Source: an uncultured bacterium
GTDB taxonomy: Bacteria > Actinomycetota > Acidimicrobiia > Spongiisociales > UBA5794
Reading direction: 5' to 3'
Assembly: GCA_963801165.1 (NCBI GenBank)
Contig: CAWDDT010000013.1
Coordinates: forward strand, 239,209-303,208
Length of the DNA: 64,000 nt
Below are positions 28,661 to 58,590 of this stretch, piece after piece (position 1 is the stretch's first letter; each line of letters starts with the position of its first letter). Under the pieces are notes generated by a model that did no database searches, was not told the origin of the DNA, and saw nothing but the letters and a program-made list of their open reading frames with translations. The translations under genes were made by a program, and so were the position numbers.

Positions 28661-28729
28661 CGCACCATCTGATGGCCCCGCCGGGCTCAACACGACCGGC
28701 GGGGCCATCGGTTGTACCCGGCCGTGCAA

Positions 28730-38847: not shown

Positions 38848-38900
38848 AGGAATGAGGCTACTGCAGCCCGGCTACCGGCTCCGACGTCGAGGGGTGGTCC

Positions 38901-40352: not shown

Positions 40353-40906
40353 ATGCCGGGATACTGCCTCATCGCGGCCGCCGATCTCGGGAGACCGACG
40401 GCTTGCAGGCGATCCAAGAGCTCGCCGGGCGTCGTATTCGGGCGGGAAAGGGCGCGAGCCTGATCTCTCACCGCACCGACTACCTGCGCCGGGGCCAGCC
40501 CGAACACGTGCAGGACGAAGTCATCCGGATTCTGGGCTTCGACACCATACGGTTTGAGACGGTCGTCCGGGAAGTCCTTGAGGTTCTTGGTGACGATCAC
40601 CTCGGCGTCGGCGTGGATTGCCACCGCCAAGACATGCCGGTCGTCGGGATCAGGCAGTTCCAGGTCGTCGATCAGGTGCTCATACCCGGTAACCAGAGCA
40701 TCCGGTATCGCCGCGTTCATCAGAGTCCTGGTCCGTTCCAGACGCCCGGAGAGTTCGGGCTGGGTGGCCACAATGGCGTCGAATACCTCGTCGAGGATCT
40801 CATCGGTCCACTTGGCCTGGAATAGTGCGGTTTGGCCGACCCGGATCAGCAGGTCGCGTAGCGATCCGGGGTAGAGGACATTGGCGTCGTAGATCGCAAC
40901 CAACAC
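40349..40906 (-). CDS. PIN-domain protein
   Basis: DANVLYP..LRDLL, ILDE, LPDPDDRHVLAVA, IVTKNLKDFP. Confidence 0.9.
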   Translation of the reverse strand: MLVAIYDANVLYPGSLRDLLIRVGQTALFQAKWTDEILDEVFDAIVATQPELSGRLERTRTLMNAAIPDALVTGYEHLIDDLELPDPDDRHVLAVAIHADAEVIVTKNLKDFPDDRLKPYGVEAQNPDDFVLHVFGLAPAQVVGAVRDQARALSRPNTTPGELLDRLQAVGLPRSAAAMRQYPGI

Positions 40907-41382: not shown

Positions 41383-41621
41383 GGTCGCTCCTGTCGCCGC
41401 TTCGATGGGTACCTCAACAATCATGTCACAATCCTCTCATATTCGCAATATTCGAATTAAATGATTTGACCGCAACACCTATGGGGCAGCAGCCGCTTGC
41501 CGGAGAACACCTCTTTGGCAGCCGCTCAGGTAACGATGCACCGTCGACTCACTGTTCGTCGATCGTATCGGCCGGGACCGACAGAAATGAGTCGCTCAGC
41601 ACGGCGTACCGCCTACCGTCG

Positions 41622-42091
41622 CTAGAACACCCAGCCTTCGTCACGCACCAGCCGATTCATCGCGAGCACAGGAATTCCCAGCTCAACGCAGACGTCAGGG
41701 ATCTTGGGTCGCTTCCGGGCTTTGCTCCCGGTTGGCTTTTCGTCAGTGCCACCGTTGCCTTCCGCTTCATGGCGAGAGCGACGACCCATCCGTCGGCCCG
41801 TCCCCTCCCTGGCTTGGTCAGCTCACCAAATTGCGCCGCCACCTGTCGTGCCTCGGCCTGAATTTCGTCAATCGACACGTGAGTGGATGGATGACGGTTG
41901 CACCAGGCGCGAGCCGACGAGCCTTGTCGTGTCAGCTCGGCGACGACCTCGTCCGAGATCAAAACCCTGTCCTCTGCGACCAGCGCGTCCATCCTCTCCC
42001 AGAACGATGGGAAATGCTCGACCGGCAACCACTCATCGGCGCCGGCGATCAGCGACGAGGAGTCGAACGAATAGCGGACCCTTCTGCTCAT
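41622..42091 (-). CDS. DUF4411-like PIN-fold protein (frameshift near 41745)
   Basis: YSFDSSSLI..FPSFW..ADGWVVALA; alternate frame gives KIPDVCVELGIP...EGWVF*. Confidence 0.78.
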
Positions 42092-43209
42092 AGGGCACCG
42101 ATCAACCGGGGTACTTGCTCGACTTTCAGGTCGAGTGCCCCGCATAGCTCGGACAGGGTGAGGACGCGGGCGGAGTGCGCCTCGAGCGCCGATTCGACAT
42201 AGGTGCGCCCGTACCGGGCGATGTGGGTGCGGTAGAAATGGCCACCCTTGGCCCTCTTCCCGGCGTGCTCCTCGTACCGGTCGTGGAGTTCCCCGGCAAC
42301 GTCGTCCCACGTGCCGGCCGGCAAGTAGCCGAGTTCGATGGCACGGATCAAGGTCGCCTCGGAGGAGACCTCGAACCGCTTCCCGATCTCCCACAGCTTG
42401 TCGAGCAGGGCACCGCCCCGAAGCGGCCGCAGGGCGCGGAACGACAGGTCTACCTCGCCGGCCGGGAGCAGGGCGGCTCCAGCGACACGGTTGCAGAACC
42501 GCTCGACCTCAAACTGGGTGTCGTGGTGGAGATCGCAGACCCCGTCGCCTCCGAGCGCGAGGTGGGCGATCTCGTGCAGCAGGTTGAAGATTTTGCCGCG
42601 GGGGCTGTCGGTGCCGTTCAGACCGACAACGGAGTATGTCTCGCCGCGACTGGAGAACCCACGAGCCGTTGTCACCGGGACCCGTTCGAACTGGACTGTG
42701 AGGATGCCGAGACGCACCGCCGCCTCCCGCCAGCTAGCCAGAGCCTCCTCCGGTGTCGACCAGTCTCGCTGGGTGTCGATCGTGACCCCGAGCGCATCTC
42801 GTATCTGTTGCGCCGCGTTCTCCACCCCGGTTGAAGTGGTCACCATCGGCAACCCGGCGGTCACAGGAGGTACGTGCTCGGCAATCTCGTGATAGAAGTC
42901 GAGCTGCTCGAGCGCCTGCCTGATACCGGCACGGAGCCAGTAGGGCATCTCCGGGGATCCGGCGCGTCGGAAGTCACGCATCGGTTGGAAGTCGGTTGGC
43001 GGTTCCGCCAGCATGAGAACGAACGTGGGCCGGCGGTAGACGCGGGCAGCATCTCGAAACTGCCGGGTGGTGGGAGACCGGGTCCCTTCCTCCCACGCCT
43101 CCAGCACGCCGGCGGATACTCCGATGCGTTTCGCCGCCTCGGCGACGTCGAGACCGATGGACTCCCTCGCCCAACGCATGACGGCTGGCTCGACCTGGAT
43201 ACGGCTCAT
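42088..43209 (-). CDS. XRE-HTH + ImmA/IrrE metallopeptidase
   Basis: N-terminal HTH (WARESIG..AAKRIG..WEEG), FNLLHEIAH, ERFCNRVAGAALLP. Confidence 0.92.
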   Translation of the reverse strand: MSRIQVEPAVMRWARESIGLDVAEAAKRIGVSAGVLEAWEEGTRSPTTRQFRDAARVYRRPTFVLMLAEPPTDFQPMRDFRRAGSPEMPYWLRAGIRQALEQLDFYHEIAEHVPPVTAGLPMVTTSTGVENAAQQIRDALGVTIDTQRDWSTPEEALASWREAAVRLGILTVQFERVPVTTARGFSSRGETYSVVGLNGTDSPRGKIFNLLHEIAHLALGGDGVCDLHHDTQFEVERFCNRVAGAALLPAGEVDLSFRALRPLRGGALLDKLWEIGKRFEVSSEATLIRAIELGYLPAGTWDDVAGELHDRYEEHAGKRAKGGHFYRTHIARYGRTYVESALEAHSARVLTLSELCGALDLKVEQVPRLIGAL

Positions 43210-44029
43210 GATCGGAACTTACCTGCTCGCACCGACGAAAACGACCCGGGCGATGACATCTTGGAGCAGCCCGGAACCCCGCGGCTCTCATGGTCAACAT
43301 CGACACTCATTCAAGTGCAACTAGCGCCATCGGCTGCGGATACCAGCCGGCACGTCGGCGAAGACCGGCTCGTCTCTGCAGACATCACCGACAGGGGTGC
43401 TATTGAGTACCTGCGTCGACGGCTCGCTGCGCAACGAGAACTGCAAGTGCCTCTGCAGCCAGCGCAACCACGCGTCTCTTGCGAGCCTGGCATCCGCATC
43501 AATGCTGGGGCACCGATCTTCACCAGGAGGGCGGTACCAACGTGACGACCCCTGACCTCGTTGTCCTGCCAATAAACAACATAGAAAGGGTCGTCGCCGC
43601 ACGAAAGCCCGTGAGAAAACCCAGGCACGCCATCAAGATCGTCGCACAGACCAGTAGGAGTCCTCGACCGACGCCATGACCTGAGGCCACGTGAATCCCT
43701 GGCACGCCGCCACCCAGTTCCACGTCAATCCCCAGTGCGTCGAGCGTAGGGCCAGTCATCCAGGAACACTCGTTGCGATCCATTCGACTCTACATCGAAA
43801 CTCTGCGTCCAATCTGCAAACTGGGCTGCTACGTCGTCCGGACCCAGCAGGTCACATGGGTGGGGCAGATTCTCCGGATCGAGCAGGCTGGCCCCCGGTC
43901 TCGCTGCAACCCGCTGCCACCAGAATCACAATCGCTACGACCCAACTCATGGTGTTCGCCCGTGGTCTCGATCAGATCCGCCCGGGGATTACCTCTAGGC
44001 GATGTTCTCGTCCGACGCGTTCTGGTTCA

Positions 44030-45907
44030 AGCCGTCGCGCATCTGCGAAGGCACGCTGTTCTCTCGATCTTCTTCATGGTCACCTGAGCCAATCGCCAAT
44101 GGCGAGACCCCGCCCGTTGTTGCCGCCGCTTGAGCGGTTCCCCGTCCGGACAAAACATGTCATTCACCGGCGGATTACGACCCTGCGTCACCTCAGCCGT
44201 CCCCAACCGGTCGATATTTCCCTCAAACACCGACCCATCGTCATCAACGAACAAATCACCACCGCCATCATCGCTATAGCCAAGGGCCCGCACCAAGAAC
44301 GCTGCCATCTGACCCCACGTTCACTCAATACCTATCCGGACAAAAACATGTTCATTCACCGGCGGATTACAACCACGCGTCACCTCAGCCGTCCCCAACC
44401 GGTCGATGTCCCCCTCAAACACCGACCCGTCGTCATCAACGAACAGGTCACCGCCACCGTAGTAGGTGGCCGCCCATTGCCCGTACCAAAAACGCTGCCA
44501 TCTGCCCCCGCGTCACATACCCATCCGGACAAAACATGTTCATTCACCGGCGGATTACAACCCCTCGTGATCTCCTCCGCGGCCAACCAGCTGATATCGT
44601 CCTCGAACACGTTCCCTGCGATGTCGACGAAATCAGGGACCGGGCACGGTGTTGGCAAACGCATACAGACCATCGCCACCGATCCCTGCGGAAACCAGGT
44701 AGAGCACGGCCGGTTTGGCCAGATGGGCGACGGCGGATCCTGGTCGCTTCCGGGTCATTGGTAGACCGGAGAGCCTCACCATGACAGTATAGAGCGGCCG
44801 TATGCGCCGAACGTTCCCGCTACCCACGTCGGATGTCGCGTTGACGGAGCCCGGGGTGGCAACCGCAGTTCTCGACTCGATCGAACCGCTCAGGGTTGTG
44901 CTCCAAGCGAGCGTCATATTCCCCGCGTCGATGGCCCGAAGTATCCCGTCCTCGCCCCCGATGTATACACGTCCGTAGGCGACAGCCCGGTGACCCTCCG
45001 GTGTCGTCGACAGGAGGAACTCGTAGACTCGGCATCGCTCCCGTCCGCCGCGTTGAGCGAGGTCACGATGGTCCGGGTCGGCAGGGTCGAGAGTGTCGTG
45101 GCGAAGACCCTCCCGTCGATGACGACAGGCCAGATGTGATTGCTTCCGTCGGAACCGTCAACGGAGGCCTCGAACACCACGCCACCCTGGTCGATGTCGC
45201 GGGCCGGCGGGCGAGCATCGTGACCGGCTGTTGTGTACGCCACCACGTAGTACTTGCCGTCGGCAACGGCGAACTCGTCGCCACCGCAGTCGAACAGGGA
45301 TCCCGATGCATTGAGCGTTTCGCCGTTCGCGGGGTCAACACCGTATATGCCGTTGACCAACAAGCCATCGCTGACCCCCAGGGCGGCAGGACACGAGCCG
45401 CCGCCGTTGCAGCCAAGGTGGGAGCGATCCAGGGAGAGCGACCCGCCCGGATTGGATATCAAGCGCCTGCCAGATCCCGGAAGGATACGCGCTGGTATTC
45501 GACAGCTGTCCCGGCGTAGATAGCAGACGGCCACTCGGCATCGTCGTGTGTCCACGCTGTGGAACCGTAGGTAGCTCGCAGCCCATAGGTCGTGTACCCG
45601 TCATATGCGAGAACGAAGCCCTCCGAGGCAAGGACACCCGGACACGTCGAATACCGCGGATGGCGTCTGGGACAACCCACAGTGGCGTGAGCGGCGGGGT
45701 GAGCTGCGACTCCTGCGCATTGAAGCCGGTCCGAGCCACGTCGTGGCGCTCGAACGGCCAGTAGACGCTCCCCGATCCCGCCTCGTTGGCCTGCGCTCCA
45801 GGCGCCGGCGATAGCAGAAAGCCGGCTACGACCACAGCCACGGCCGCGACGACACGGAGTCTCAGGGCAGAACCGTGTCGCATTTTCCGGACACTCACGC
45901 TTCCCAT
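44030..45907 (-). pseudogene. Heavily frameshifted secreted PQQ-like beta-propeller + SLH protein (3' end approximate)
   Basis: GGAGG RBS, signal peptide, WPFERHDVARTG, PVVIDGRVF; SLH fragments (FEDDISWLAAEEITRGCNPP, MAAFLVRALG) at ~44100-44640. Confidence 0.65.
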
Positions 45908-45939
45908 CGTTCCTCCCGAATCGGCGACCTTGCTCATAG

Positions 45940-45964
45940 GACGGCTCGACCCGGAGGATTGTCA
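45940..45964 (-). promoter_or_regulatory. Putative ECF promoter TGACA-N16-CGTC(CTAT)
   Basis: Exact motif on the minus strand ~30 bp upstream of ATG 45907. Confidence 0.7.
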
Positions 45965-46084
45965 TAGCGAGAACGGGGACGACCGCTAGCTGGCACCGTG
46001 ATCATCTTCTTGCCGCACTTGGTAGCCGAGTTGCGAGAGGACGACACCCCTAACAGGCCAACCAACATATCTAGATCGATGCAG

Positions 46085-47344
46085 CTAGAGACCATACGAG
46101 GAGCCCATACGCACAGTCGTCGATGCGGATAAATAAGCCAATGCGTCTGCTGGATCTAGCGAGTTGAAAGCGCGTGCGTTGGCGTGGCAGTAGTGTTGCA
46201 GCTCCGAAACCGCTACGACGATTGAGTTGATAGAGGAATGTGTGAGGGGGTTGTCAGACAGTTTGATCGACCATGCCAGGCCTCCTGCATACTCCTCTGG
46301 GAGAAACTTCAAAATCCGGAGTCATGCGTTGAAGGTAACTGCGATCGGATCGGGGAGCTATGGGACCGACAGCCATCTAAACGATCCGTGGACGGTGAGC
46401 TGTGTGCTGTCGCTAGCTTCCACGCAGTTGGTCGATGTTTCCTGGGGATAACCCGGACGCTCAGGCCTTTGGAGTGGACTGGTCTTTCTGCAGCCGCCGG
46501 GCTGTCACCTCGGCGGCATGGACGGGAGTCCATGTTGACATCTACGTCTCCGCTTCCGCCGCGCCGGCAGCGTCATAGTCGCGGTATCTGCCGCATGCGA
46601 CACGATCTCGCTGTCTCGCAGTCCGGCCCATACGCTCTGCAGCAAATCTGGAGTCTGGTTGAACGTGCTTCCCTCGGGAACGAACGACCGCGGGTCTGTC
46701 CCCCTGTGTCGAGGTCGCTGACGAACCCGTAGGTCGTCTCCGGCCGATTCGGGAGTCGTTCGAGCTGGAGGTGTGCTCACCAGGGATGAGACGTATTGAG
46801 GGATACCCGGGGGAAAAAGCCGGCACACGAAGTCGGCACGAGTTGCCACGGGGAACCGATCGCCGGCTTCCGGTTTGGAGCGAGAAACCGGACGAATCGG
46901 GGCTGCACTTGTTCCCCGGAATCTTCTCGGGGCCAACGTTTCCGAGCAGCACGTCCGCCTCTACGACTTTCCAACCGCGTTGATCGGATAGCACATCACG
47001 CCATGCCAGCAGATAAAGAATGCCCGACGTGTGACGGAAGTCGAATGAGGACACCATCACACCGTCAGGGGGCGGCGATGTGGTTGTTGTTGGGGCGCTT
47101 GTTGTTGTAGTAGTCGCGTTGTTGTCGTTGTCGTGCTCGCCACAGGCCTCGTGGCCGTGGTCGACGACCTACTGCTCACGCTCTGATTTCCTGGATTGAC
47201 GTGAGACGTTGCCGTCGCCGCGTTTTCGCCGGTTTGCAGTGATGTAGCGCTGTCGGGAGGCTCGTTGTCTGCCGAAATGCCTCCGCAAGACCCGAGCAAG
47301 GCGAATACGAAGACCACCACCCAGACTCGTCGCGTCGTCACCAT
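46085..47344 (-). pseudogene. Putative lipoprotein with Thr-rich linker, broken by several frameshifts
   Basis: AGGAGG RBS, lipobox LLGSC, TTTTTT linker; downstream ORF fragments 46542-47060 and 46085-46312. Confidence 0.5.
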
Positions 47345-47473
47345 CGTGTCCTCCTGGTCTCAGCCCCACGGCGGGCCTGTGTCCTCCACCTGTCTCGCGG
47401 CTCGAATTTCAGACCATGACCTGAAGCAACGCTCACGCCCTTGGTCGAATCTCTTTCTGAGCCTCGCCCATAG

Positions 47474-47498
47474 GACGTCCGAGATCAGAGCGATGTCA
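47474..47498 (-). promoter_or_regulatory. Putative ECF promoter TGACA-N16-CGTC(CTAT)
   Basis: Exact motif on the minus strand upstream of lipoprotein gene. Confidence 0.7.
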
Positions 47499-47516
47499 TG
47501 GCGAGAGCGGCAATCG

Positions 47517-50118
47517 CTAGCTGGCGACGGTGACGACGACGTCGAGCAGGATGTTGGCGCGACATTCGAAGCGGGCACCCGAGTCTTCCACGTCGGGGCA
47601 CTGTGGCCAGCCACTCGATTGGTATGGATGGGTGAACCCGTAGATCTCATTGATCGGGTCGGCCACAACCAGCTCCTCGATGATGTAGTCGCCGTCACGG
47701 ACAGACTCGGGGACCGTGACATCGACGACATACTCGTCCCCGTCGCGCCGTGTGGACGACACCTGGAATATGACGGTCTCGCCGCTTGCCTCATGAGCGA
47801 AGAAGACCGTCTGGATCTTCTCGGCTCCGCCGATCTTGGCCCGCAACTCGAAGGTGTCACCGGGCTTCACCATCGACGGAGTCACGCGGACCGCTTCGAG
47901 GGAAGGCGTCGGCAATGCCATGTTGTCACCACCGACTGTGAACTGCGAGTCACCTGACAACGCTTGCGAAGCACACATCGGCCCTCCGGAGTATCGGTAC
48001 CCCTGCGTGCAGTCCCCTACGCTCGGAAAGGTCTCCGGGTTCAAAATGTGATACTGGTCACCATCGACACCAAACACAATCACCTCCGAGACCACCCAGG
48101 TCCCGGTTGCGGCCGATGTGGGAAGCTCGATGTTCGCGGTGAATACGTCGCCGTTCCGGGAGAACTGAGTCATCGGTAGTGTCGCCGAGACCCCACTCGG
48201 ACGCTTGAAGATAACCGCGGTCACGTCGGTGGCTCCCGTCACTGTCAATGAGACCGGTACATCGGTTCCTGGCCCGACCTCTCCGTCCGGAAGTTGGATT
48301 GCCACCAGTGCCGGCACATCTGCGGGTGTGGTTTGGTCTAACGTTCCACTCGTCGCCTCCGCAGTCGTTGTCGTCTCCGGTGCCGTGGTTGTCGTCTCAG
48401 GTGACATCGTGGTTGTCGATGCCGCAACCGCGGCCACCGTGGCCGTTGTGTCGCGAGCCACCGTGGTCGATTCGACCTGCGTTGTCGTCGTGGCCGCCTG
48501 ACCGGCGGCTGTGTCTGAGGGTGTGCCCTCGCTCCCGCCAGAACCAATCAATCGGAGTAGCACGATCACAAGACCGACCGCGACCGCAGCTGTCGCCACG
48601 GCCCACCGTCGCCAGCGGTTCGATGTCGGCGCGGGCGACGTTGCGGCCTCCGCCACCGTCCGTTGCGACGGCAGTTCGACGGGCGTCGCCGTAGCTGCGG
48701 TGGTCGCCCAACCGTCGAGATGCCAATCGCCTCGAGACCGATCGACGCCAACCACCAGGCGAGTGGGACTGGCGCGCCCCGCCATGCGGTCGCTCGCTGC
48801 TCTCAGCAGCGCCTCCAGCCGGGAACGCTCGACGTCGCTGAGATCCTCGACTCCGTCGAGCAGCACCAACCATCCCGGATCAGCGGCGCAGCCGAGCACT
48901 TCCCGGCCCGTGAAGCGGCCCCGCCATAGCTGTGAAGCAATGTACTCGACGAGGTCCGGTTCGAAACGGGACAGCTCCGCGTGGAACGAGGGATCGGCGG
49001 CGTGTATCCGAAGCGGGATCAGCGGCGACTGGTAGGTGCCCCGCAGCGCTCCGTGGAGCATGCCGCCGAGCTCGGCGGCAACCACAGCTGCCGATTGTCC
49101 CGTTACTTCCGTGAGGCGAGCCTCCGGAGCAGTCGCGGCGCCGGCGTTCGTCGCTTCTCCCGGTTCGGCCACCGACAACAAGGGCACCAGCGGCAACGCG
49201 AACGGGATAGCGTCGCCCAACGTCGCCACCGGCCACAGACGGTCGCCTTGACCCGTCTCGGGCTGGCGATCGGGAAACAGCAACGGCAGAGCCAGTTCGG
49301 CAGCGGCGTCCTTCTTGGCATCGAAGTGATCCACCACCCCAATGTTTCCCCACCGATCCAGTCTTCCCGTGGCGACACAGGCACGTGCGGAGCGCCGCAC
49401 CCATTCCGGGAGGAAAGCCGTAACCACGGCAAGGGCCGCGGACAAAGCGAGCGATCCCCCCGAGATGCCTTGCCGCTGGAGGTGGCGCTCATATGAGAAA
49501 GTCGAGTACTCGTCTGGGAACGGAAGGCGATAACCGCCGATGTTGATGCGGGTCTGCAATACCTGAAGGTCCTCGGGCGGCGCAGTTACCGGATGATCTT
49601 CGAGCCACGCCATGGCCGCTTGGGCTGCTACGTCGAGAGCGCCAGTCGCGGCTCTCATCCGCAGGTGGCGACACGACCGTCACCCCCGACCGTTGCAGGC
49701 CCGACCGGGTTGCGACCACGAGCCGGTCGACGAACGCCCGCGACCACGGCGCATCCACGTAGCCAACGCCGAGGCATTCGCCATGCCGGGTGCCGGGAGC
49801 ACTGACCCACTCCCATTCATCGATCAGCGGCACCGCACTCCGTGGGGTGTCGGTCTCCCATGCAACGGGGTCCCGCACCGCCTCCGCCGCACGCGAGTTG
49901 CCCACCGCGGCCAGCGCGTCGACGACGACCGCGGCTGCTGTATTCGCTCCCCGGCTTTCCGCTACCCAGCGGATCGCCTGATCGAGTTGCGCTCGAGTCT
50001 CGAGCATCCCGACCGTTGGCCAACCCGGGTCGCGCCGGGCCTGGCATGCCGCCCGATACCATTCCTCGGTCGCCGCGGACAGCTGCGCCGAGTAGTCGCC
50101 CCTCCTGGTGTCCGCCAC
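47517..50118 (-). CDS. Membrane-anchored Lon-type (S16) protease-domain protein with degenerate NACHT-like segment and extracellular repeats; one frameshift at ~49660
   Basis: GISGGSLALSAALA (Ser), VATGRLDRWGNIGVVDHFDAKKDAA (Lys), LVLLDGVEDL, single TM, Thr-rich stalk, two related beta-rich repeats; GTG 2 nt after ECF stop. Confidence 0.7.
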
Positions 50119-50120
50119 AA

Positions 50121-50651
50121 CTACCCCCTGGCTGCGATATTCTCGTCCGTGATGGGCGTCTCGATTCCCGACAGCTCCGCCAACGTCCGCCGAGCCACCA
50201 TGAGCAGGTTGCGGAACGATCCATAACGCAGCCCTAGCCGGTCGGCGCACTCCTCCTGCGAGCGTCCCTCGAGGTAGTGGCAACGAACGGCCTGCTGATG
50301 TCGGTCTGGAAGCAGGGCGACGAGCTCAGCGACAAAAATCTCGTCGACGACATCGCTGCTGAGACTCGACTGATCCGGAATATGGTTCCATGTGTCCGGT
50401 GCCTGAGTCACCGCGTGTGAGTCTCTTCGCAACACATCGATCGCGGCGTTCCTGACCACTGCTGCCAGCCAGGCCATCCGCCGTCCCGGTGACCAATCCG
50501 CCAGCTCCTCCCACCTTTGTAGCAGCTTGACGAACGACTCCTGGGCTACGTCGTCGGCTCTACCCGAACCCCACCCCACGATCGTCTCAGCAATACGAAC
50601 AGCTTTGGGCAGGGCATCGGCGTAGAACAACTCGAAGCCCGCAGCATCCAT
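50121..50651 (-). CDS. ECF sigma factor
   Basis: Region 2 (ADDVAQESFVKL..W..WLAAVVRNAAIDVLRR) and region 4 (LPDRHQQAV...EGRSQEECADRLG). Confidence 0.92.
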   Translation of the reverse strand: MDAAGFELFYADALPKAVRIAETIVGWGSGRADDVAQESFVKLLQRWEELADWSPGRRMAWLAAVVRNAAIDVLRRDSHAVTQAPDTWNHIPDQSSLSSDVVDEIFVAELVALLPDRHQQAVRCHYLEGRSQEECADRLGLRYGSFRNLLMVARRTLAELSGIETPITDENIAARG

Positions 50652-50710
50652 GACGTCCCAATACTAGGTAGGTGGTAGCGTGCCCCGCTAGCAACGGTCC
50701 AGACGCGACA

Positions 50711-50735
50711 TGACAATCCCGCGGGCTGAATCGTC
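50711..50735 (+). promoter_or_regulatory. Putative ECF promoter TGACA-N16-CGTC(TACT)
   Basis: Exact motif 35 bp upstream of ATG 50771. Confidence 0.7.
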
Positions 50736-50770
50736 TACTAGATGGTTGTCAAAGAGACGGCCGGCCGAAG

Positions 50771-51691
50771 ATGACCGACATCCAACTCACTATCACCTAC
50801 CACCGCTTTGGTGACTACCTGCGCGTGCGCGCATCCTCGAGCACGCCACCAATAGCCGTACCCACATCCGACGGTCCCATCCTCTACCTGGATCGGGATG
50901 ATCCGGCCGTGCTGGTGGGGTGCGATATCGACCACTTCTCGACAACCTACCCAGCTCTGGATACTGCCTCCATCGAAGCGCTCGGCACCGAACTGTTCGA
51001 AGAGCTGGGCAGGATTCACAGCTCGAGCGTCGCCACTACTGAAGGTGCTCCAACAGCGCCGGATTCGGAAGAGCTGGTCGGGACGGTGCTGCGAGAGCCG
51101 GAACGATCGCTGCTCACGCTGCTCGAGGAATCGCCCGCGACTGGCGATGCCAGACGCCGCCTGCTGGCATCGATGCTGGAACCCGACGTTCCCGGGGTTC
51201 CCCGCGAGGAAGCGAGCGACTTCACCGCACCATCGGTGGTCATCAGGAACCGCTTCGTAGCTCTCAAGGAGAAGCTCGGCGCCTCCCTCGCCAAGACGGG
51301 AGCCGTTCGCCTCGACCTGTTGCGCAAGCCGGTTCCGGTTGCCGGTGCCTCGTTTGCCGAGCCGGATCCGAGCCGGCTGCCGGATCGTTTCGAGGTGACC
51401 GAAGGAGGCATCCGCGTGGCCTTCGTCCCGGAGGGGTCTATGTTCTGGGCCAACGGCTTCGTGCCGATCGAGCCCAACTCGGGGCCGGTTTCGCTGCATA
51501 TCACCGTACGGCTCACCGGCGAGGGGATGCGTATTGTCCAGCCGCTCCCCGGGTCCGAGCAGGGTGAGGGGACGCTCCGCGCCCACGGCGAGGTGCTCGA
51601 GGACGGTTTCTTCCAAATCCATCTGGGCTCGGTCACCGTTCAGGCGGGTGGCGATGCCCTCGTCGAGAGCTGCGAACTCACCTTCGACTAG
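50771..51691 (+). CDS. Hypothetical protein, N-terminus DUF2283-like
   Basis: 306-aa ORF divergent from ECF; ITYHRFGDYLRV...ILYLDRDDPAVLVGCDI pattern. Confidence 0.6.
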   Translation: MTDIQLTITYHRFGDYLRVRASSSTPPIAVPTSDGPILYLDRDDPAVLVGCDIDHFSTTYPALDTASIEALGTELFEELGRIHSSSVATTEGAPTAPDSEELVGTVLREPERSLLTLLEESPATGDARRRLLASMLEPDVPGVPREEASDFTAPSVVIRNRFVALKEKLGASLAKTGAVRLDLLRKPVPVAGASFAEPDPSRLPDRFEVTEGGIRVAFVPEGSMFWANGFVPIEPNSGPVSLHITVRLTGEGMRIVQPLPGSEQGEGTLRAHGEVLEDGFFQIHLGSVTVQAGGDALVESCELTFD

Positions 51692-51735: not shown

Positions 51736-51765
51736 TTGTTGGGCGACGTCCATCAAGGAGAGAGA

Positions 51766-52227
51766 GTGAAGGGATTCATCATCCTCGTGGTTGTCGCTGC
51801 TGTCGCCTACCTGCTCTACCAGGCATACCAGTCGGCGAAGCTCGAGACCAGCGAGTCGCGCACCATCAAGCACCTGCCGCCATCGGTCCAACAAGTCGTG
51901 GCAAGCATGGACCCGCAAACGCAAAACACCTTCTTCAACGAATACCTGAAGAAGCGGAAGCGGAAGAGTGTCGGCTGGATCCTGCAGCTGATCCCCATCA
52001 CCTGGCACTACCTCTACGCCGGCAACGTCGGACTCCAGTTCGCGTTCTGGTTCACCGGCGGTGGCTTCGGCATCTGGTGGCTGATCGACCTGTTCCGGAT
52101 GCCCAGCATCATCCGCGGCGCCAACGAGCGCATCGCTCGCGACGCAATACAGACGATCGGGTCGATGGCGGCTTTCGGGCGTGGTGCGGGTACAAACCAG
52201 TTTCCCGCTACCGGGCAGGCAGTATGA
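51766..52227 (+). CDS. TM2/NINE-domain membrane protein
   Basis: AAGGAG RBS; KS.GWIL...HYLYAG..GLQFAFWFTGGGFGIWWLIDLF. Confidence 0.82.
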   Translation: MKGFIILVVVAAVAYLLYQAYQSAKLETSESRTIKHLPPSVQQVVASMDPQTQNTFFNEYLKKRKRKSVGWILQLIPITWHYLYAGNVGLQFAFWFTGGGFGIWWLIDLFRMPSIIRGANERIARDAIQTIGSMAAFGRGAGTNQFPATGQAV

Positions 52228-52427: not shown

Positions 52428-54044
52428 ATGATGTGGCGGCGGTTGTTTGGTTTGTGTGTGGTGTTGTGTCTGCTGGTGAGCGCCGGGGTGACGGCTGCGG
52501 CTGCTGATTCGTTGCCGCCGGGCGGGACGTTCAGTGACGATAACGGCAACATCCATGAGGGATACATCGAAGCGATTGCTGCAGCCGGGATCACCAAGGG
52601 CTGTAACCCGCCAACCAACGACCACTACTGCCCGGATGATGTGGTCACCCGCGGTCAGATGGCAGCGTTTCTGGTACGAGCCCTGCATCTGACCGACGAT
52701 GGTGGCGGCAACACCTTCACCGATGACAACGGCACAGTGTTCGAAGATGACATCGCCAAACTCGCCGCCGCCGGGATCACCAAAGGCTGTAACCCGCCAA
52801 CCAACAACCACTACTGCCCCAACCAGGTGGTCACCCGCGGTCAGATGGCAGCGTTTCTGGTACGAGCCCTGCATCTGACCGACGATGGTGGCGGCAACAC
52901 GTTCACCGATGACAACGGCACAGTGTTCGAAGATGACATCGCCAAACTCGCCGCCGCCCAGATCACCAAAGGCTGCAACCCGCCAACCAACAACCACTAC
53001 TGCCCCAACGACCCGGTCCACCGCGACCAGATGGCCTCATTCCTCGGCCGAGCCCTCGGACTAGCACCGACCTCGCCACCACCATCCAACGAGCCCCGCC
53101 TGGCATACACGCGCGTTGTGGATGGGCTAGCGGCGGGTATCGAAGTGGCCGCTATCGACGGTACGGGGAGTGAACTCCTAACCGCAGACGGCATGAGGCC
53201 GCAATACTCTCCCGACGGCTCGAAGATCGCGTTTCTCAACGGTTTCGAGTTTGGGCTCGCGGTGATGAATACGAACGGGTCCGGGATCTTGACCCTCACG
53301 CCAGAAGCCCAGGGCACTGTCTATACGGTGGCCGGCGGCTTCAGCTGGTCACCAGACGGCAGTCGCCTAGCAGTCTCCATGATCGGGCCCTCCGACGCCG
53401 AATTCTTGGAGCCAAGCATCTGGACCATCGGCGTTGACGGGTCTGACCTCACCGAACGAACCGACACGCCCGAGCTGGCTCTGACAACACCGCTGTGGGC
53501 CCCGGACGACAGATACATCCTGGTTTGCAATCCCGGTGCCATTGAGAGCTCGTTGGCTCGAATCACCCCGGAGGGCTCATCTCTCAACCAGTTCGCCGTC
53601 GGCAACTGCGACTACTCATACTCGAGAGATGGCGACAATGTCTGGTTCTCCAGCAGTCGCGACGGAGACGCCGACACCGGTGACAGTGAGATCTTCCGCT
53701 GGCGTGTTGACCTGCTGCCGCCAGAACAACAGACAACGGACAGCGGACGCTCCTTCGATCCCGAGCCCTCGCCCGATGATGGCCAGTTCGTGTTTGTGCG
53801 GCGCGATGGCGACGGTGACACGGAGATCTTCACTAAGACCATCGGCAATCCTGAGCATCAGCTGACCGACAACACCGCGACCGAACTGCAGCCGACCTGG
53901 AGCCCAGACGGAGACTACATAGCATTCATCTCGAACCGGACCGGGGTATTCGAAGTCTATGTGATGCGATCTGACGGCTCTGATCTGGTCCAGATCAGTC
54001 ATGGTGGGGGTGAGGATCCGGCCTGGGCGCCGTTGAGCTTCTAG
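52428..54044 (+). CDS. Secreted protein: 3 SLH-like repeats + TolB-like (PD40) beta-propeller
   Basis: Signal peptide, three GITKGCNPP repeats, many WSPDG motifs. Confidence 0.9.
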   Translation: MMWRRLFGLCVVLCLLVSAGVTAAAADSLPPGGTFSDDNGNIHEGYIEAIAAAGITKGCNPPTNDHYCPDDVVTRGQMAAFLVRALHLTDDGGGNTFTDDNGTVFEDDIAKLAAAGITKGCNPPTNNHYCPNQVVTRGQMAAFLVRALHLTDDGGGNTFTDDNGTVFEDDIAKLAAAQITKGCNPPTNNHYCPNDPVHRDQMASFLGRALGLAPTSPPPSNEPRLAYTRVVDGLAAGIEVAAIDGTGSELLTADGMRPQYSPDGSKIAFLNGFEFGLAVMNTNGSGILTLTPEAQGTVYTVAGGFSWSPDGSRLAVSMIGPSDAEFLEPSIWTIGVDGSDLTERTDTPELALTTPLWAPDDRYILVCNPGAIESSLARITPEGSSLNQFAVGNCDYSYSRDGDNVWFSSSRDGDADTGDSEIFRWRVDLLPPEQQTTDSGRSFDPEPSPDDGQFVFVRRDGDGDTEIFTKTIGNPEHQLTDNTATELQPTWSPDGDYIAFISNRTGVFEVYVMRSDGSDLVQISHGGGEDPAWAPLSF

Positions 54045-54312: not shown

Positions 54313-55351
54313 ATGATGCACGCGGCGCTGGTTTGGTTTGGGTGTGGCGTTGTGTCTGTCCGGTGAGCGCCGGGGTGACGGCTGCGGCTGCTGATTCGTT
54401 GCCGCCGGGCGGGACGTTCAGTGACGATAACGGCAACATCCATGAGGGATATATCGAAGCGATTGCTGCAGCCGGGATCACCAAGGGCTGTAACCCGCCA
54501 ACCAACGACCACTACTGCCCGGATGATGTGGTCACCCGCGGTCAGATGGCAGCGTTTCTGGTACGAGCCCTGCATCTGACCGACGATGGTGGCGGCAACA
54601 CCTTCACCGATGACAACGGCACAGTGTTCGAAGATGACATCGCCAAACTCGCCGCCGCCCAGATCACCAAAGGCTGCAACCCGCCAACCAAACAACCACT
54701 ACTGCCCCAACGACCCGGTCCACCACGACCAGATCCGCCCTCATTCCTCGGCCGAGCCCTCAACCTCACCCCCACCACACCACCCGAGGACGAGCTGGTT
54801 CATTGTGCGGCCCCAATCTCACTGGATGGGTCGCACCAACATACAAGGACCTGGACGCCGACGGTACGGACGAGCGTTACTACCTCGGCATCGACCCCGA
54901 CACCGGCGAGATATGGCTCGAGCTTTTTGCGCCTTACCCGGGACTTCCGGTCTACTCCGAAAACCTGGTCTACGGCGCCGTTCCCAGCGGTGGAGAGGTG
55001 TGGACGGGTGACTTGACCGGTGATGGCAAATCCGAGTTGGTGGCATGCGCCACCCAAGCCGGTGCGGGCGATTCCCTGGTCGACGCCCGGGTGCTGTCCA
55101 ACCACAGCGGGACTTGGCAACTTGTCTTCACAGACGACCAACTCGACGACGGCGTGATCGAGGGGAATAGTGGATCGGTGGTGGCGACCGAGAGCTTCGA
55201 GTTGCTCGCTGGCAAATGCTCGTGGCACGAACACTCAACCTACGAGTGGACCGGTTCAACATTCTCCTTCGCATCAGTTGTAGTGGAGGTCGTCCGGAGC
55301 GACGACGAGCTCTGCGATTCGATCATTCCCGAAGGGAGGAATCCTCAATGA
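54313..55351 (+). CDS. Secreted protein: 2 SLH-like repeats + C-terminal domain with DxxGDG motif (frameshifted)
   Basis: Fragments 54333-54790 (SLH) and 54803-55351 (DLDADG, GDLTGDGKSELV). Confidence 0.7.
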
Positions 55352-56954: not shown

Positions 56955-58590
56955 ATGATCGACGCGGCGCTGGTTTGGTTTGGGTGTGGCGTTGTGTCTG
57001 CTGGTGAGCGCCGGGGTGACGGCAGCGGCTGATTCGTTGCCGCCGGGCGGGACGTTCAGTGACGATAACGGCAACATCCATGAGGGATACATCGAAGCGA
57101 TTGCTGCAGCCGGGATCACCAAGGGCTGTAACCCGCCAACCAACGACCACTACTGCCCGGATGATGTGGTCACCCGCGGTCAGATGGCAGCGTTTCTGGT
57201 ACGAGCCCTGCATCTGACCGACGATGGTGGCGGCAACACCTTCACCGATGACAACGGCACAGTGTTCGAAGATGACATCGCCAAACTCGCCGCCGCCGGG
57301 ATCACCAAAGGCTGTAACCCGCCAACCAACAACCACTACTGCCCCAACCAGGTGGTCACCCGCGGTCAGATGGCAGCGTTTCTGGTACGAGCCCTGCATC
57401 TGACCGACGATGGTGGCGGCAACACGTTCACCGATGACAACGGCACAGTGTTCGAAGATGACATCGCCAAACTCGCCGCCGCCCAGATCACCAAAGGCTG
57501 CAACCCGCCAACCAACAACCACTACTGCCCCAACGACCCGGTCCACCGCGACCAGATGGCCTCATTCCTCGGCCGAGCCCTCAACCTCACCCCCACCACA
57601 CCACAGCCGGGTCCGTCGATCGTCTACACGAACGACGGCATCTGGATCACCGACAGCGCCGGCTCGTTCCACACGGAATTGGCCGAAGCAGGGGTCGCTC
57701 CTCGCATCTCGCCCGACGGAAACCTGATCGGGTATCTCGCTGACTGGTGTGTCGCAGTCGTCGGGGACGAGTGCATCGACTCGCTTCCCCATGTGGAGGT
57801 GATCACGATTGACGGAACGCCCCTCGCATCGTTTGACATAGAGGCATTCCTGACAAGCCAGGGCCTGAGCTCGGGCTCATTCGGATTCTCGTGGACTCCC
57901 GACGGGATGGTCGGGCTCGACGCCGGATGGAGTACCAACGGCAACGATCGGGGCATCTGGGTGGTCAGCCTGGACGGGTCCCATATCGAGAAGATCGCCG
58001 ACAACCCGGACGGTCACGAAACGGCCCCGGAGTTCTCCCCGGATGGCACGAGAATCGCCTATCAGAGCACGACCATGGGCGACAGCCTCATTGTCATCGG
58101 GAAGATCGGCGACATGCTCACCTACTCGTATTCGCTGGTCGGCAGCACCTACTACGGCGCCCAGGCGTACGACTGGTCGCCCGACAGCAGGTTCCTGGCA
58201 TATGCCACCGACAGTGGCAGCGGCACAACGCTCATCATCCACAACCTCGTGACCACGTTGCGCGGGGTGATCGCCTCGGACATCGGCTACGTCGCCGATC
58301 CCATGTGGTCTCCGGACGGCTCCCAGCTGACGTTCTCCAGCTCCCAGGACGGTGACTACGAGATCTACGTGTACACGTTCACAAATCTCGACGGTAGCGA
58401 CTTCGGGTTCCTTGACGGAGACCTGACCCAACTGACGTTCAATAGCGGGATATCCGACACGGAGCCGGCCTGGTCCCGCGACGGAACACAGATTGCCTTC
58501 ACCCGCGACAGCGACATTTTCGTGATGAACGCTGACGGATCCAACCAGCACCAGGTCGCCATAGGGAGTCAACCGCAGTGGAGCCCATAG
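56955..58590 (+). CDS. Secreted protein: 3 SLH-like repeats + TolB-like (PD40) propeller (small indel in signal peptide)
   Basis: SLH part near-identical to 52428 gene; divergent WSPDG propeller. Confidence 0.88.

What the first reader, a model, noticed from the sequence alone, without database searches (positions are those of the whole stretch)
47517..50651. ECF sigma factor coupled to a transmembrane Lon-type protease: an unusual signal-transduction architecture
Seen: the gene starting 2 nt after the ECF stop occupies the usual anti-sigma position. Joined across one frameshift (~49660) it reads: ~100-aa helical N-terminus, Lon_C-like domain (beta strands LGVGYV..RLVVA, helix AAQAAMAWL, SGGSLALSAALA Ser, ATGRL..G.I..V...DAKK Lys), a NACHT-like segment with Walker B (LVLLDGVE) but no Walker A, one TM helix, a Thr-rich stalk and two extracellular beta-sandwich repeats. 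Known: Lon-family Ser-Lys proteases release an ECF sigma in the CRISPR-linked CalpL-CalpT-CalpS cascade; classical anti-sigmas are not themselves proteases. Inference: an extracellular-sensing receptor protease that controls the sigma by cleaving itself or a partner.
Basis: partly seen in the sequence, partly recalled or inferred. Interest (0 to 1): 0.85.

Follow-up and report, generated by a model that had tools for sequence, protein, structure and literature searches.

The report
Lon-like membrane receptor beside ECF sigma
Right after an ECF sigma factor gene lies a frameshift-split gene for a membrane receptor whose cytoplasmic part is a Lon-type Ser-Lys protease domain joined to a dead STAND ATPase. 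This is a rare design that may control the sigma factor by proteolysis, but the gene may be broken in this genome.

Summary
On the minus strand an ECF sigma gene (50651-50121) is followed 2 nt later by GTG 50118. The coding signal runs in one frame to about 49660, then shifts +1 into the 713-aa ORF 49658-47517.

Read through, the protein has these parts:
- a helical N-terminus;
- a Lon_C/S16-like domain with Ser and Lys at the catalytic columns (hhalign 98% to PDZ-Lon_C proteases; a family-only profile hits solved Lon domains at E 2.8e-6; Foldseek's top hits are all Lon, TM 0.75-0.76 to isolated Lon protease domains);
- a STAND NTPase remnant with a Walker-B-like strand and no P-loop;
- one TM helix and a Thr-rich stalk;
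- two copies of an uncharacterised secreted repeat.

The Lon-like module is very rare. I found nine other carriers, all 1000-1600-aa STAND ATPases. No orthologue of either gene turned up in 40 related genomes.

The nine closest ECF paralogues are each followed by a single-pass membrane protein, so this gene sits in the anti-sigma slot.

Control of the sigma by proteolysis is inference only. The neighbourhoods of the homologues could not be fetched. The frameshift also appears in a second, noisy assembly and may be real.

Verdict: a real and unusual architecture with an unproven mechanism, in a gene that may be recently inactivated.

The parts
50121..50651 (-). ECF-type sigma factor gene, 176 aa, with sigma regions 2 and 4.
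   Evidence: Pfam Sigma70_r2 and Sigma70_r4_2. NCBIfam TIGR02937 above its cut-off, with no specific subgroup reached. Codon log-odds +44.7.
50124..50129 (-). AGGGGG, a Shine-Dalgarno-like site 5 nt upstream of GTG 50118. It lies inside the last codons of the sigma gene, which suggests translational coupling.
   Evidence: Read directly from the sequence.
49804..50118 (-). N-terminal helical region of the receptor, residues 1-105 of ORF1. It starts at GTG 50118.
   Evidence: AF2 with the family alignment gives helices 9-29, 36-56, 58-71, 75-88 and 98-105, pLDDT about 67-84. It aligns collinearly but weakly with the N-termini of the STAND homologues, 6.5 bits against 1.2 for the reversed control.
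49660..49803 (-). First beta-strands of the Lon-like domain, encoded by the end of ORF1's in-frame part (joined-protein residues about 106-151).
   Evidence: AF2 strands 110-121, 127-139 and 146-149 at pLDDT 81-92. Foldseek aligns 208-215 columns to isolated Lon protease domains of 180-191 residues, so the whole domain including this part is matched.
49636..49680 (-). Zone that holds the +1 frame break between ORF1 (frame A) and ORF2 (frame B). It has no homopolymer longer than 2.
   Evidence: TGA in frame B at 49682-49680. The codon log-odds switch is flat across 49680-49636. Positions 49658-49808 are confirmed without a gap by one contig of an independent run, while 49611-49657 are covered by none. 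P0090, from another assembly, keeps the same frame relation but has one codon fewer here.
49179..49658 (-). Core of the Lon_C/S16-like domain (ORF2 residues 1-160). Ser69 is codon 49454-49452, Thr97-Gly98 follow, and Lys115 is codon 49316-49314.
   Evidence: hhalign against 7 PDZ-Lon_C proteases gives probability 98.4%, E 4.9e-15. The family-only profile hits 1xhk at E 2.8e-6 and LonA at 1.4e-4. Gly, Ser and Lys are invariant in all 17 aligned sequences. pLDDT is 85-96 over most of this stretch, with lower blocks at the break and around joined residues 201-220.
48699..49121 (-). Degenerate STAND NTPase remnant (ORF2 residues about 180-320). The P-loop is deleted (TGQS----AAV where homologues have GxGK[ST]). 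The Walker-B-like LVLLDGVED and the following strand are kept.
   Evidence: Alignment A4. The family NTPase HMM scores 11.9 bits against a best of 3.8 in 200 shuffles, and hhalign gives 79%. There is no Pfam hit, and the AF2 pLDDT is below 60.
48543..48611 (-). The single transmembrane helix (ORF2 residues about 350-372), preceded by RWRRW on the cytoplasmic side.
   Evidence: This is the only 19-residue Kyte-Doolittle window at or above 1.9 in ORF1 or ORF2.
48327..48542 (-). Thr/Ser/Ala/Pro-rich extracellular stalk.
   Evidence: Composition is 59% T+S+A+P. It is the source of the low-complexity matches in relatives.
47541..48326 (-). Two copies (ORF2 445-576 and 581-706) of an uncharacterised secreted repeat that carries a conserved Cys pair.
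   Evidence: The single-repeat proteins P0014 and P0019 each match ORF2 twice. P0003 matches at 39% identity over 412-702. Relatives carry signal-peptide-like N-termini. The DUF7743/DUF7035 links are weak leads only.
50771..51691 (+). Divergently transcribed 306-aa gene of unknown family. It is coding-like and is a possible partner, but nothing was shown.
   Evidence: Codon log-odds +107.7. No Pfam, NCBIfam or PADLOC hit, and no usable Atlas hit.

Best explanation
What is shown. The two ORFs are the halves of one gene of about 865 codons for a single-pass, N-in membrane protein, co-transcribed and probably translationally coupled with an ECF sigma factor.
- The cytoplasmic part is a helical N-terminus, then a Lon_C/S16-fold domain that keeps the Ser-Lys pair, then a STAND NTPase core that has lost its P-loop.
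- The outside part is a Thr-rich stalk and two copies of a secreted repeat.
- The helical-plus-Lon module comes from a very rare family in which it is the N-terminal output domain of MalT/AfsR-type STAND ATPases (AAA_16 or NACHT with TPR or HEAT repeats).
- In this gene the ATPase and its repeat sensor are replaced by a dead ATPase stub, a membrane anchor and an ectodomain.

What is inferred.
- Binding of an outside signal to the ectodomain changes the self-association of the cytoplasmic part. This would use the logic of STAND oligomerisation without nucleotide.
- That switches on the Lon-like protease.
- The protease cuts the receptor itself or a partner and so frees the co-encoded sigma factor. 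This resembles CalpL, CalpT and CalpS.

Status of the gene. In this assembly the gene carries a +1 frame break in a variable loop of the Lon-like domain. I put about 60% on the break being real and about 40% on a consensus error. If it is real, the gene was inactivated recently, because both halves still look fully coding.
For: Gene structure. The frame switch is supported by stop positions and codon log-odds. The ORF1 strands complete the Lon fold in the model.

Lon_C relationship.
- With ORF2 residues 1-159 as query, 7 of the 8 weak genome matches in 400 genomes of the class (besides the window's own genome) are PDZ plus Lon_C proteases. All 4 that I scanned carry Pfam Lon_C.
- hhalign gives 98.4%, E 4.9e-15 with this protein in the profile and 97.9%, E 3.6e-13 without it.
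- The family-only profile finds solved Lon protease domains, 1xhk at 2.8e-6 and 5e7s at 1.4e-4.
- All Foldseek hits shown in the listing through rank 49 are Lon or Lon-like proteases (probability 1.00). TM is 0.75-0.76 at rmsd 3.7 to 1rr9 and 6x27.
- Gly220, Ser222 and Lys268 of the joined protein are invariant in all 17 aligned sequences. Thr250 and Gly251 are nearly invariant.

Origin in STAND proteins.
- All 7 proteins that match ORF2's N-terminus among 1.84 billion cluster representatives are 1000-1593 aa. Pfam finds AAA_16 or NACHT in 6 of them and only a weak AAA_22 match in the seventh (P0017), and TPR or HEAT repeats in 5; the last (P0023) has an N-terminal kinase.
- Two more members were found.
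- Their nearest STAND relatives carry SARP, LuxR, cyclase or kinase domains at the N-terminus instead. These are signalling outputs.

Anti-sigma slot.
- The gap after the sigma gene is 2 nt and an SD-like site precedes the start.
- 9 of the 9 closest ECF paralogues in relatives are followed, with overlaps of 4 to 20 nt, by a single-pass membrane protein with a Thr/Pro-rich stalk. Five of these carry Ig-like (Glucodextran_B or Big) or solute-binding ectodomains by Pfam; the other four have no Pfam hit.

Parallel architecture. The closest relative of the ectodomain (P0003, 39% identity) is a caspase (Peptidase_C14) plus TM plus the same ectodomain.

Precedents in print.
- CalpL, a Lon protease, cleaves the anti-sigma CalpT and frees the ECF sigma CalpS on oligomerisation (passages of PMC11417357).
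- Caspase-bearing conflict systems coupled to ECF sigma genes have been predicted (passages of PMC8195603).
Against: - No experiment or co-variation links the protease to the sigma.
- No homologue of the Lon-like module could be shown next to an ECF gene, because no neighbourhood could be fetched.
- Pfam's own Lon_C model does not reach the protein, even at E 10.
- The AF2 alignment contained 7 true Lon_C sequences, which may have pulled the model toward that fold.
- The geometry of the Ser-Lys pair could not be measured.
- No anti-sigma domain is recognised in the N-terminus. That N-terminus is shared with cytoplasmic STAND proteins, so it is not a special sigma-binding addition.
- The NTPase similarity is weak.
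- The gene is split. A second, error-rich assembly shows the same out-of-frame tail (P0090).
- The 4 kb downstream (43.7-47.5 kb) scores as non-coding.
- Neither the sigma nor the receptor has an orthologue in 40 relatives, 14 of them in the same genus.
- All of this fits a decaying accessory locus.
Confidence: 0.45

Rival explanations
1. Dead gene. The frameshift is real, and the locus is a recently inactivated remnant in a decaying, strain-specific island. Whatever the ancestral protein did, it does nothing now, and the neighbouring sigma gene is free-running or also on its way out.
For: - Frame break with no slippery run or homopolymer.
- The same out-of-frame tail to the same stop in another assembly (P0090).
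- The one independent contig over 49658-49808 shows no indel.
- The P-loop is already lost.
- The adjacent 43.7-47.5 kb has negative or low (at most 0.09 per codon) codon log-odds in every candidate ORF tested.
- No orthologue in 40 relatives.
Against: - Apart from the single break, both halves have no stops and a strong coding signal (+31.7 over 153 codons, +171 over 714).
- The catalytic Ser, Thr-Gly and Lys are intact.
- The other assemblies that hold the locus (P0002, P0004, P0090) are full of indels relative to this one. The organism may therefore be recovered mostly from error-prone data, and the break may be a recurring consensus error.
- Positions 49611-49657 are not covered by any laid contig.
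Confidence: 0.3
2. Working membrane protease, but not a regulator of the sigma. It would be an output of the operon: a surface-signal or conflict-triggered protease that cuts other targets, as effector domains of STAND proteins do. The sigma would only drive its expression.
For: - All relatives of the Lon-like module are effector-position domains of STAND proteins with no sigma domain of their own.
- No anti-sigma domain is detected.
- HTH-Peptidase_M78, DUF4411 and PIN_3 genes lie 5-9 kb away, which hints at an accessory or conflict-type island.
Against: - PADLOC finds nothing for ORF1, ORF2 or the sigma.
- The nearest STAND relatives carry signalling outputs (SARP, LuxR, cyclase, kinase), not killing domains.
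- The gene sits exactly where the membrane partners of all 9 examined ECF paralogues sit.
Confidence: 0.15
3. Non-catalytic anti-sigma factor. The cytoplasmic part only holds the sigma, and the Lon-like domain is a scaffold. Release would come from the usual outside proteases (regulated intramembrane proteolysis).
For: - Position, coupling and N-in single-pass topology match membrane anti-sigma factors.
- The ATPase part is already a pseudo-enzyme.
Against: - Ser, Thr-Gly and Lys are kept at the catalytic columns in this protein and in all nine homologues, except that P0017 lacks the Thr-Gly. That is not expected of a scaffold.
- No anti-sigma domain is found.
Confidence: 0.07

Closest known systems
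CalpL-CalpT-CalpS (type III CRISPR SAVED-Lon protease, anti-sigma factor and ECF sigma factor)
   Same: A Lon-type Ser-Lys protease domain sits N-terminal to a sensor or oligomerisation domain and is encoded beside an ECF sigma. In CalpL, oligomerisation switches on the protease, which cleaves the anti-sigma and frees the sigma (passages of PMC11417357).
   Different: There is no SAVED domain and no separate CalpT-like anti-sigma. Links to cyclic nucleotides or CRISPR were not looked for. The sensor here is extracellular behind a TM helix, and the middle domain is a P-loop-less STAND remnant. CalpL chains were not among the Foldseek hits shown.
Lon protease proteolytic domain (MEROPS S16, Pfam Lon_C), including the PDZ-Lon_C proteases of the YlbL/SdrC type
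   Same: The fold and the Ser and Lys columns match. A Thr-Gly pair aligns with the TG of the Lon_C consensus.
   Different: Pfam Lon_C does not score it. The Ser motif is G-x-S-L-G/A-L rather than GPSAG. There is no AAA+ or PDZ partner. A conserved helical domain of about 100 aa precedes it.
MalT/AfsR-type STAND ATPases (AAA_16 plus TPR) with swappable N-terminal output domains
   Same: The nine homologues are such proteins, with the Lon-like module in the output position. The window protein keeps the collinear Walker-B strand.
   Different: The window protein has no Walker A, no winged-helix or TPR part, and is membrane-anchored. I found no description of a Lon-like module as a STAND output in three literature searches.
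Membrane anti-sigma factors of ECF sigma factors
   Same: Gene position, translational coupling, N-in single-pass topology and a stalk plus ectodomain, as in the partners of 9 of 9 ECF paralogues in relatives.
   Different: The cytoplasmic part is about 500 aa with enzyme-like domains, against about 35-60 aa in those partners. No anti-sigma domain family is detected.
Caspase (EACC2) conflict systems coupled to ECF sigma factors, predicted by Kaur et al. 2021
   Same: A protease with variable sensor domains is genomically coupled to an ECF sigma, with proposed autoproteolytic activation and a transcriptional output (passages of PMC8195603). The closest relative of the ectodomain carries a caspase domain in place of the Lon-like part.
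   Different: The protease fold differs. No EACC2, TRADD-N or DUF1822 partner was seen. The context of the caspase homologue P0003 is unknown.

Membership tests
Peptidase S16 / Lon_C proteolytic domain | Lon protease-domain fold | tested here: met
   The AF2 model has pLDDT 85-96 over most of residues 100-310, with dips at the break (141-160) and at 201-220. All Foldseek hits shown are Lon proteases, with TM 0.75-0.76 and rmsd 3.7 to 1rr9_F and 6x27_D. Caveat: 7 Lon_C sequences were in the input alignment.
Peptidase S16 / Lon_C proteolytic domain | Significant sequence-profile similarity to Lon_C | tested here: met
   hhalign 98.4% and 97.9%. The family-only profile against PDB gives 1xhk at 2.8e-6 and LonA at 1.4e-4.
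Peptidase S16 / Lon_C proteolytic domain | Reaches Pfam PF05362 (Lon_C) as a single sequence | tested here: not met
   There is no Lon_C hit for ORF1, ORF2 or the joined protein, up to E 10.
Peptidase S16 / Lon_C proteolytic domain | Ser and Lys at the catalytic columns | tested here: met
   ORF2 Ser69 aligns with the Ser of GPSAG. Lys115 aligns with the Lys of the Lon_C proteases and of LonA 4ypl. Both are invariant in all 17 sequences.
Peptidase S16 / Lon_C proteolytic domain | Dyad geometry and proteolytic activity | not testable with these tools
STAND NTPase (AAA_16 / NACHT) | Walker A motif GxxxxGK[ST] | tested here: not met
   A 4-residue deletion sits at the P-loop column, TGQS----AAV against GEGGAGKT or GESGIGKS.
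STAND NTPase (AAA_16 / NACHT) | Walker B strand hhhhD followed by the sensor strand, collinear with the family | tested here: inconclusive
   WLVLLDGVED and TRLVVGVDR align to the family HMM at 11.9 bits, against a best of 3.8 in 200 shuffles. hhalign gives 79%. There is no Pfam hit, and the AF2 model there is below pLDDT 60.
ECF sigma factor (the upstream gene) | Sigma regions 2 and 4 only, about 170-200 aa | tested here: met
   Pfam r2 and r4_2. TIGR02937 is above its cut-off. No ECF subgroup model reached its cut-off, so the ECF group stays unassigned.
Membrane anti-sigma factor | Recognised anti-sigma domain (zf-HC2, RskA or similar) | tested here: not met
   None is found in Pfam or NCBIfam.
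Membrane anti-sigma factor | Gene directly downstream of the sigma, with N-in single-pass topology | tested here: met
   The gap is 2 nt, there is one TM helix, and 9 of 9 paralogue loci have the same layout.
Membrane anti-sigma factor | Binds its sigma factor | not testable with these tools
CalpL-CalpT-CalpS | SAVED sensor domain and a separate CalpT anti-sigma substrate | tested here: not met
   There is no SAVED or other family hit in the protein or its neighbours.
CalpL-CalpT-CalpS | Linkage to a type III CRISPR locus | not tested
   I made no search for cas genes or arrays in the window or genome.

The most novel reading that the evidence does not exclude
A one-polypeptide NLR-like receptor turned inside out. 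An extracellular repeat sensor drives nucleotide-independent assembly of a pseudo-STAND core through the membrane. That assembly fires a Lon-type Ser-Lys protease, which cuts the receptor's own N-terminal part (or the sigma's inhibitor) and releases the co-encoded ECF sigma. This would be a third route to ECF activation, besides regulated intramembrane proteolysis and CalpL. It would also mark the Lon-like module as a new proteolytic output domain of MalT/AfsR-type STAND ATPases.
Probability: 0.2. Interest if true: 0.8.

Novelty: new variant of a known kind. Interest (0 to 1): 0.55.

Why it matters
ECF sigma factors are the largest group of bacterial alternative sigma factors, and how many of them are switched on is unknown.

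A membrane partner that carries its own Lon-type protease would join two known ideas in one protein. One is protease-gated release of a sigma, as in CalpL. The other is STAND or NLR-type assembly.

It would also show that the output position of actinobacterial MalT/AfsR-type ATPases can hold a protease, not only DNA-binding, cyclase or kinase domains.

The family is tiny: ten proteins among 1.84 billion cluster representatives. The window gene is the only membrane-bound, sigma-linked form found. The value lies in the principle, not in how widespread it is.

If the gene is dead here, it is still a record of how such receptors are built by domain swapping.

Tried and rejected
Searches and models that led nowhere
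- A single-sequence AF2 of the joined protein gave pLDDT 37 and was useless.
- The word-index homologue search with ORF2 found nothing.
- phmmer of the joined protein against PDB found nothing.
- PADLOC found nothing for ORF1, ORF2, the sigma or the 50771 protein.
- The ESM Atlas gave no usable hit for the 50771 protein and only sub-0.9 leads (DUF7743/DUF7035) for the ectodomain.
- Rfam, tRNA and sigma-70 promoter scans found nothing relevant. I could not define an ECF-type promoter in 50652-50770.
- tblastn of the Lon-like core against plasmids gave no match.

Neighbourhoods of the homologues
- The search for related loci on genome contigs was flooded by the Walker-B pattern. 0 of the 80 loci kept hold the Lon-like domain.
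- The degenerate-motif scan of metagenome contigs gave 10 loci, 0 of them true members.
- Searches of 400 genomes each of the class, order and phylum found no STAND-Lon member.
- These are samples, so the result is 'not found in those searched', not 'absent'.

Frameshift
- An exact 24-mer next to the break was not found in metagenome contigs.
- The laid contigs of four runs are short and thin. None covers 49611-49657.
- No RNA holder was listed.
- My genome-wide census of frameshift-like junctions was inconclusive. It gave 6 and then 59 junctions, depending on the filter. It missed the case in hand. The four other junctions flagged inside the window may be ordinary overlapping open frames.
- I considered and rejected a programmed +1 frameshift, because there is no in-frame stop or slippery run at the site.

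Complex prediction
- The sigma (alignment A6) with ORF1 residues 1-105 gave no verdict, score 0.00 in two runs, and controls were not run.
- This is no evidence either way.

ORF1 homology
- BLASTP of ORF1 against P0011 was not significant.
- The profile test was weak, at 6.5 bits.

- Supplements of papers were not opened. The supplement tables of PMC8195603 and of STAND surveys might list Lon-like effectors that I could not see.

Unpublished genome
- The counts of relatives include the unpublished genome G027. No sequence from it is used.

Full report
LOCUS AND FRAMES

The window is contig C13 (239209-303208) of a 4.55-Mb genome in 13 contigs. One family member is labelled Acidimicrobiia by its source.

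On the minus strand, ORF 50651-50121 encodes a 176-aa sigma factor.
- It carries Sigma70_r2 and Sigma70_r4_2.
- It reaches the general ECF model TIGR02937, 59.9 bits against a cut-off of 42.9, but no subgroup model.

The sigma's TAG stop is at 50123-50121.
- Two bases later, GTG 50118 opens frame A.
- AGGGGG lies 5 nt upstream of that GTG.

Frame A reads as ordinary protein to about 49660, then as Arg/Ser/Pro-rich junk to a stop at 49489.
- Frame B (+1) has a TGA at 49682-49680.
- From there frame B is open to 47517, with ATG 49658 heading a 713-aa ORF.

Codon log-odds trained on this genome's long ORFs support a switch:
- ORF1's first 153 codons score +31.7.
- Its frame-A tail scores -24.4.
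- The same stretch in frame B scores +13.5.
- ORF2 as a whole scores about +171 to +178.
- The best switch point is flat between 49680 and 49636.
- I read the gene through by reference with X at the break (P0001).

WHAT THE PROTEIN IS

Pfam, NCBIfam and PDB sequence searches of the single sequences found nothing.

An exhaustive HMMER search of 1.84 billion cluster representatives with ORF2 gave 24 hits.
- Seven hits match ORF2 residues about 7-160. All seven are 1000-1593 aa. In six the matched region lies at residues about 170-320, just before an AAA_16 or NACHT NTPase (in P0017 only a weak AAA_22 match) that five of the seven follow with TPR or HEAT repeats. In the seventh (P0023) it lies at about 514-637 behind an N-terminal Ser/Thr kinase.
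- Two more members came from a region search.

The link to Lon rests on several tests.
- I searched 400 genomes of the class, plus the window's own, with ORF2 residues 1-159. This gave eight weak matches, E 7e-5 to 7e-4.
- Seven of the eight are 349-475-aa proteins ending in ...GGPSAG...TGT...G.VG.IGG..QK.... All four that I scanned carry Pfam Lon_C plus PDZ. The eighth looks like a FolC-type ligase by eye.
- Profile against profile, the family's domain matches these Lon_C domains at 98.4%, E 4.9e-15. Without the window protein the figures are 97.9% and 3.6e-13.
- A profile of the ten family proteins alone finds solved Lon protease domains: 1xhk at 2.8e-6, and 5e7s and 4ypm at 1.4e-4.
- In a 17-row alignment of the family plus the seven Lon_C proteases, Gly220, Ser222, Lys268 and Ala303 of the joined protein are invariant. 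Thr250 and Gly251 are nearly so.
- These positions are ORF2 Ser69, Thr97-Gly98 and Lys115. Ser69 falls on the Ser of GPSAG. Lys115 falls on the Lys that HMMER aligns with the second Lys of KEK in LonA 4ypl. That this Lys is the catalytic one is from my recall of E. coli Lon (S679 and K722).

AF2 with the 17-row alignment gave the following:
- pLDDT 85-96 over most of residues 100-310, with dips at the break (141-160) and at 201-220;
- pLDDT about 67-84 for a helical bundle at 10-90;
- pLDDT below 60 beyond residue 312.

All Foldseek hits shown in the listing through rank 49 are Lon or Lon-like proteases, E from 1.5e-8 and probability 1.00.
- Against isolated Lon protease domains the TM-score is 0.75-0.76, at rmsd 3.7 over 208-210 columns (1rr9_F, 6x27_D).
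- These targets are 182-185 residues long, so the match must include the strands encoded by ORF1 (110-149). This supports reading the two ORFs as one gene.
- Caveat: true Lon_C sequences were in the AF2 alignment.

ORF1 on its own matches the N-termini of the STAND homologues only weakly, though collinearly. It scores 6.5 bits, against 1.2 for its reverse.

MIDDLE AND OUTER PARTS

After the Lon-like domain, the alignment shows TGQS----AAV where the homologues have GEGGAGKT or GESGIGKS. It also shows WLVLLDGVED against LLLLLDGANE or LLVVIDDLQW.
- The family's NTPase HMM scores this part at 11.9 bits, against a best of 3.8 in 200 shuffles. hhalign gives 79%.
- I call it a STAND remnant without a P-loop, on moderate evidence.

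The rest of the protein lies in or beyond the membrane.
- A single hydrophobic helix (ORF2 about 350-372) follows RWRRW.
- The next 70-90 residues are 59% Thr/Ser/Ala/Pro.
- The ectodomain holds two copies of one repeat. The single-repeat proteins P0014 and P0019 each match ORF2 twice, at 445-576 and 581-706.
- Relatives of the repeat are secreted-looking proteins of 150-370 aa.
- The closest relative, P0003 (39% identity over ORF2 412-702), has a Peptidase_C14 caspase domain, a TM helix, a Thr-rich stalk and the same ectodomain.
- So a protease domain of another fold sits in the same frame.

FAMILY CONTEXT

I ran a profile search of the 5.8-billion-protein index with the family alignment. It returned 203 proteins, of which 120 are listed.
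- My domain HMM finds the Lon-like module only in the members already known, plus P0004 and P0090, which are pieces of the window's own gene from other assemblies.
- The other top hits share the AAA_16-TPR body. At the N-terminus they carry SARP/BTAD, LuxR-type HTH, class 3 adenylate cyclase or Ser/Thr kinase domains.
- The Lon-like module is therefore one of several swappable outputs of a signalling-type STAND clade.
- Three literature searches found no description of such a fusion. A recent STAND survey does not contain the word Lon in its main text (find in PMC13581612).

THE LINK TO THE SIGMA

Neither gene has an orthologue in 40 related genomes, 14 of them in the same genus.
- The receptor matches only through its low-complexity stalk.
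- The sigma's best matches are 28-36% identical paralogues.
- DNA of 47.5-50.7 kb is not among the listed same-genus matches. Those are dominated by multi-copy SLH modules and two near-identical mobile-looking segments.

At nine of those paralogue loci I looked downstream.
- All nine have a gene overlapping the sigma's stop by 4-20 nt.
- Each encodes a protein with a cytoplasmic N-terminus of about 35-60 aa, one TM helix and a Thr/Pro-rich stalk. Pfam recognises an ectodomain in five of the nine: Glucodextran_B and Big-type Ig-like domains in four, SBP_bac_5 in one.
- The window gene has the same place and topology, but its cytoplasmic part is about 500 aa.
- This is the best evidence that it is the sigma's partner. 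It is evidence from position only.

Two published precedents fit the idea of protease-gated sigma release.
- In CalpL/T/S, oligomerisation of a SAVED-Lon protease leads to cleavage of the anti-sigma CalpT and release of the ECF sigma CalpS (introduction of PMC11417357).
- Kaur et al. predicted caspase-bearing systems coupled to ECF sigma genes, with autoproteolytic activation (passages of PMC8195603).

IS THE GENE WHOLE?

The break lies in a loop that varies in length among homologues. The interval has no homopolymer longer than two.

Read-level evidence is thin.
- Contigs of four public runs (salt marsh and soil metagenomes) are near-identical but thin.
- One contig covers 49658-49808 without a gap. 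None covers 49611-49657.

Other assemblies hold the locus.
- P0090 is a 387-aa gene call from another assembly. It starts with the sigma's first 76 residues. It passes through several frame changes and ends with ORF1, including the same out-of-frame tail and the same stop.
- At the break zone P0090 reads ...PPADE-GDW... where the window reads ...PPADESRDW....
- P0002 and P0004 also carry several indels relative to the window.

So a second, noisy assembly shows the same frame relation. This favours a real break. A recurring consensus error at a difficult site is not excluded.

A programmed frameshift is unlikely, because there is no stop or slippery run.

Other signs suit an accessory locus in decay:
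- Every candidate ORF tested in 43.7-47.5 kb scores negative or, at best, 0.09 per codon.
- The neighbours include HTH-Peptidase_M78, DUF4411 and PIN_3 genes.

VERDICT

- The Lon_C relationship and the Ser-Lys pair are well supported.
- The STAND remnant is moderately supported.
- The role as the sigma's partner rests on position.
- Control by proteolysis is inferred by analogy.

My odds are:
- 0.45 that it is, or until recently was, a protease-type regulator of the sigma;
- 0.30 that it is simply dead here;
- 0.15 that it is a protease output unrelated to control of the sigma;
- 0.07 that it is a non-catalytic anti-sigma factor.

Noticed in passing
window 43700-47500: About 4 kb directly downstream of the receptor gene has negative or low (at most 0.09 per codon) codon log-odds in every candidate ORF tested, and none of the four ORFs scanned there has a convincing Pfam hit; the only match is a sub-threshold, low-complexity one. 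ORFs 45937-45335 and 45555-44914 overlap in different frames and may be a second broken gene. A stretch at about 44150-44620 matches the multi-copy SLH module. It looks like a zone of gene decay.
   Followed up: partly
window 52428-54044, 54333-55016, 56980-58590: Three neighbouring genes encode SLH repeats. The first and third also carry PD40 (WD40-like) beta-propeller repeats. The SLH-coding DNA is a multi-copy module found many times in this genome and in all 14 same-genus genomes at 69-84% identity.
   Followed up: partly
window 38400-39700 and 41600-43250: Two segments are 96-97% and 88% identical at DNA level to other species of the genus (G005, G014), far above the rest of the region. 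The second holds a DUF4411 gene with foreign codon usage and an HTH plus Peptidase_M78 (ImmA/IrrE-like) gene. A PIN_3 gene lies at 40349-40906. This is probably mobile or recently exchanged DNA.
   Followed up: no
window 28331-30309 and 32847-33823: Two places about 4 kb apart show the same pattern: a 173-aa open frame overlapping the next open frame by 187 nt in another frame, with similar codon scores. Neither has a Pfam hit. This may be a duplicated element with a frame change. I did not examine it further.
   Followed up: partly
proteins P0028-P0147: The AAA_16-TPR body of the STAND homologues recurs with many different N-terminal domains (SARP/BTAD, LuxR HTH, class 3 adenylate cyclase, Ser/Thr kinase, SAM). 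This is a clear case of output-domain swapping on one sensor chassis in Actinomycetota and beyond.
   Followed up: no
window 51736-52227: A small membrane protein with a TM2 domain sits between the divergent 306-aa gene and the first SLH gene. The Pfam score of 25.2 bits is just under the cut-off of 27.9. Its codon log-odds are high, 0.44 per codon.
   Followed up: no
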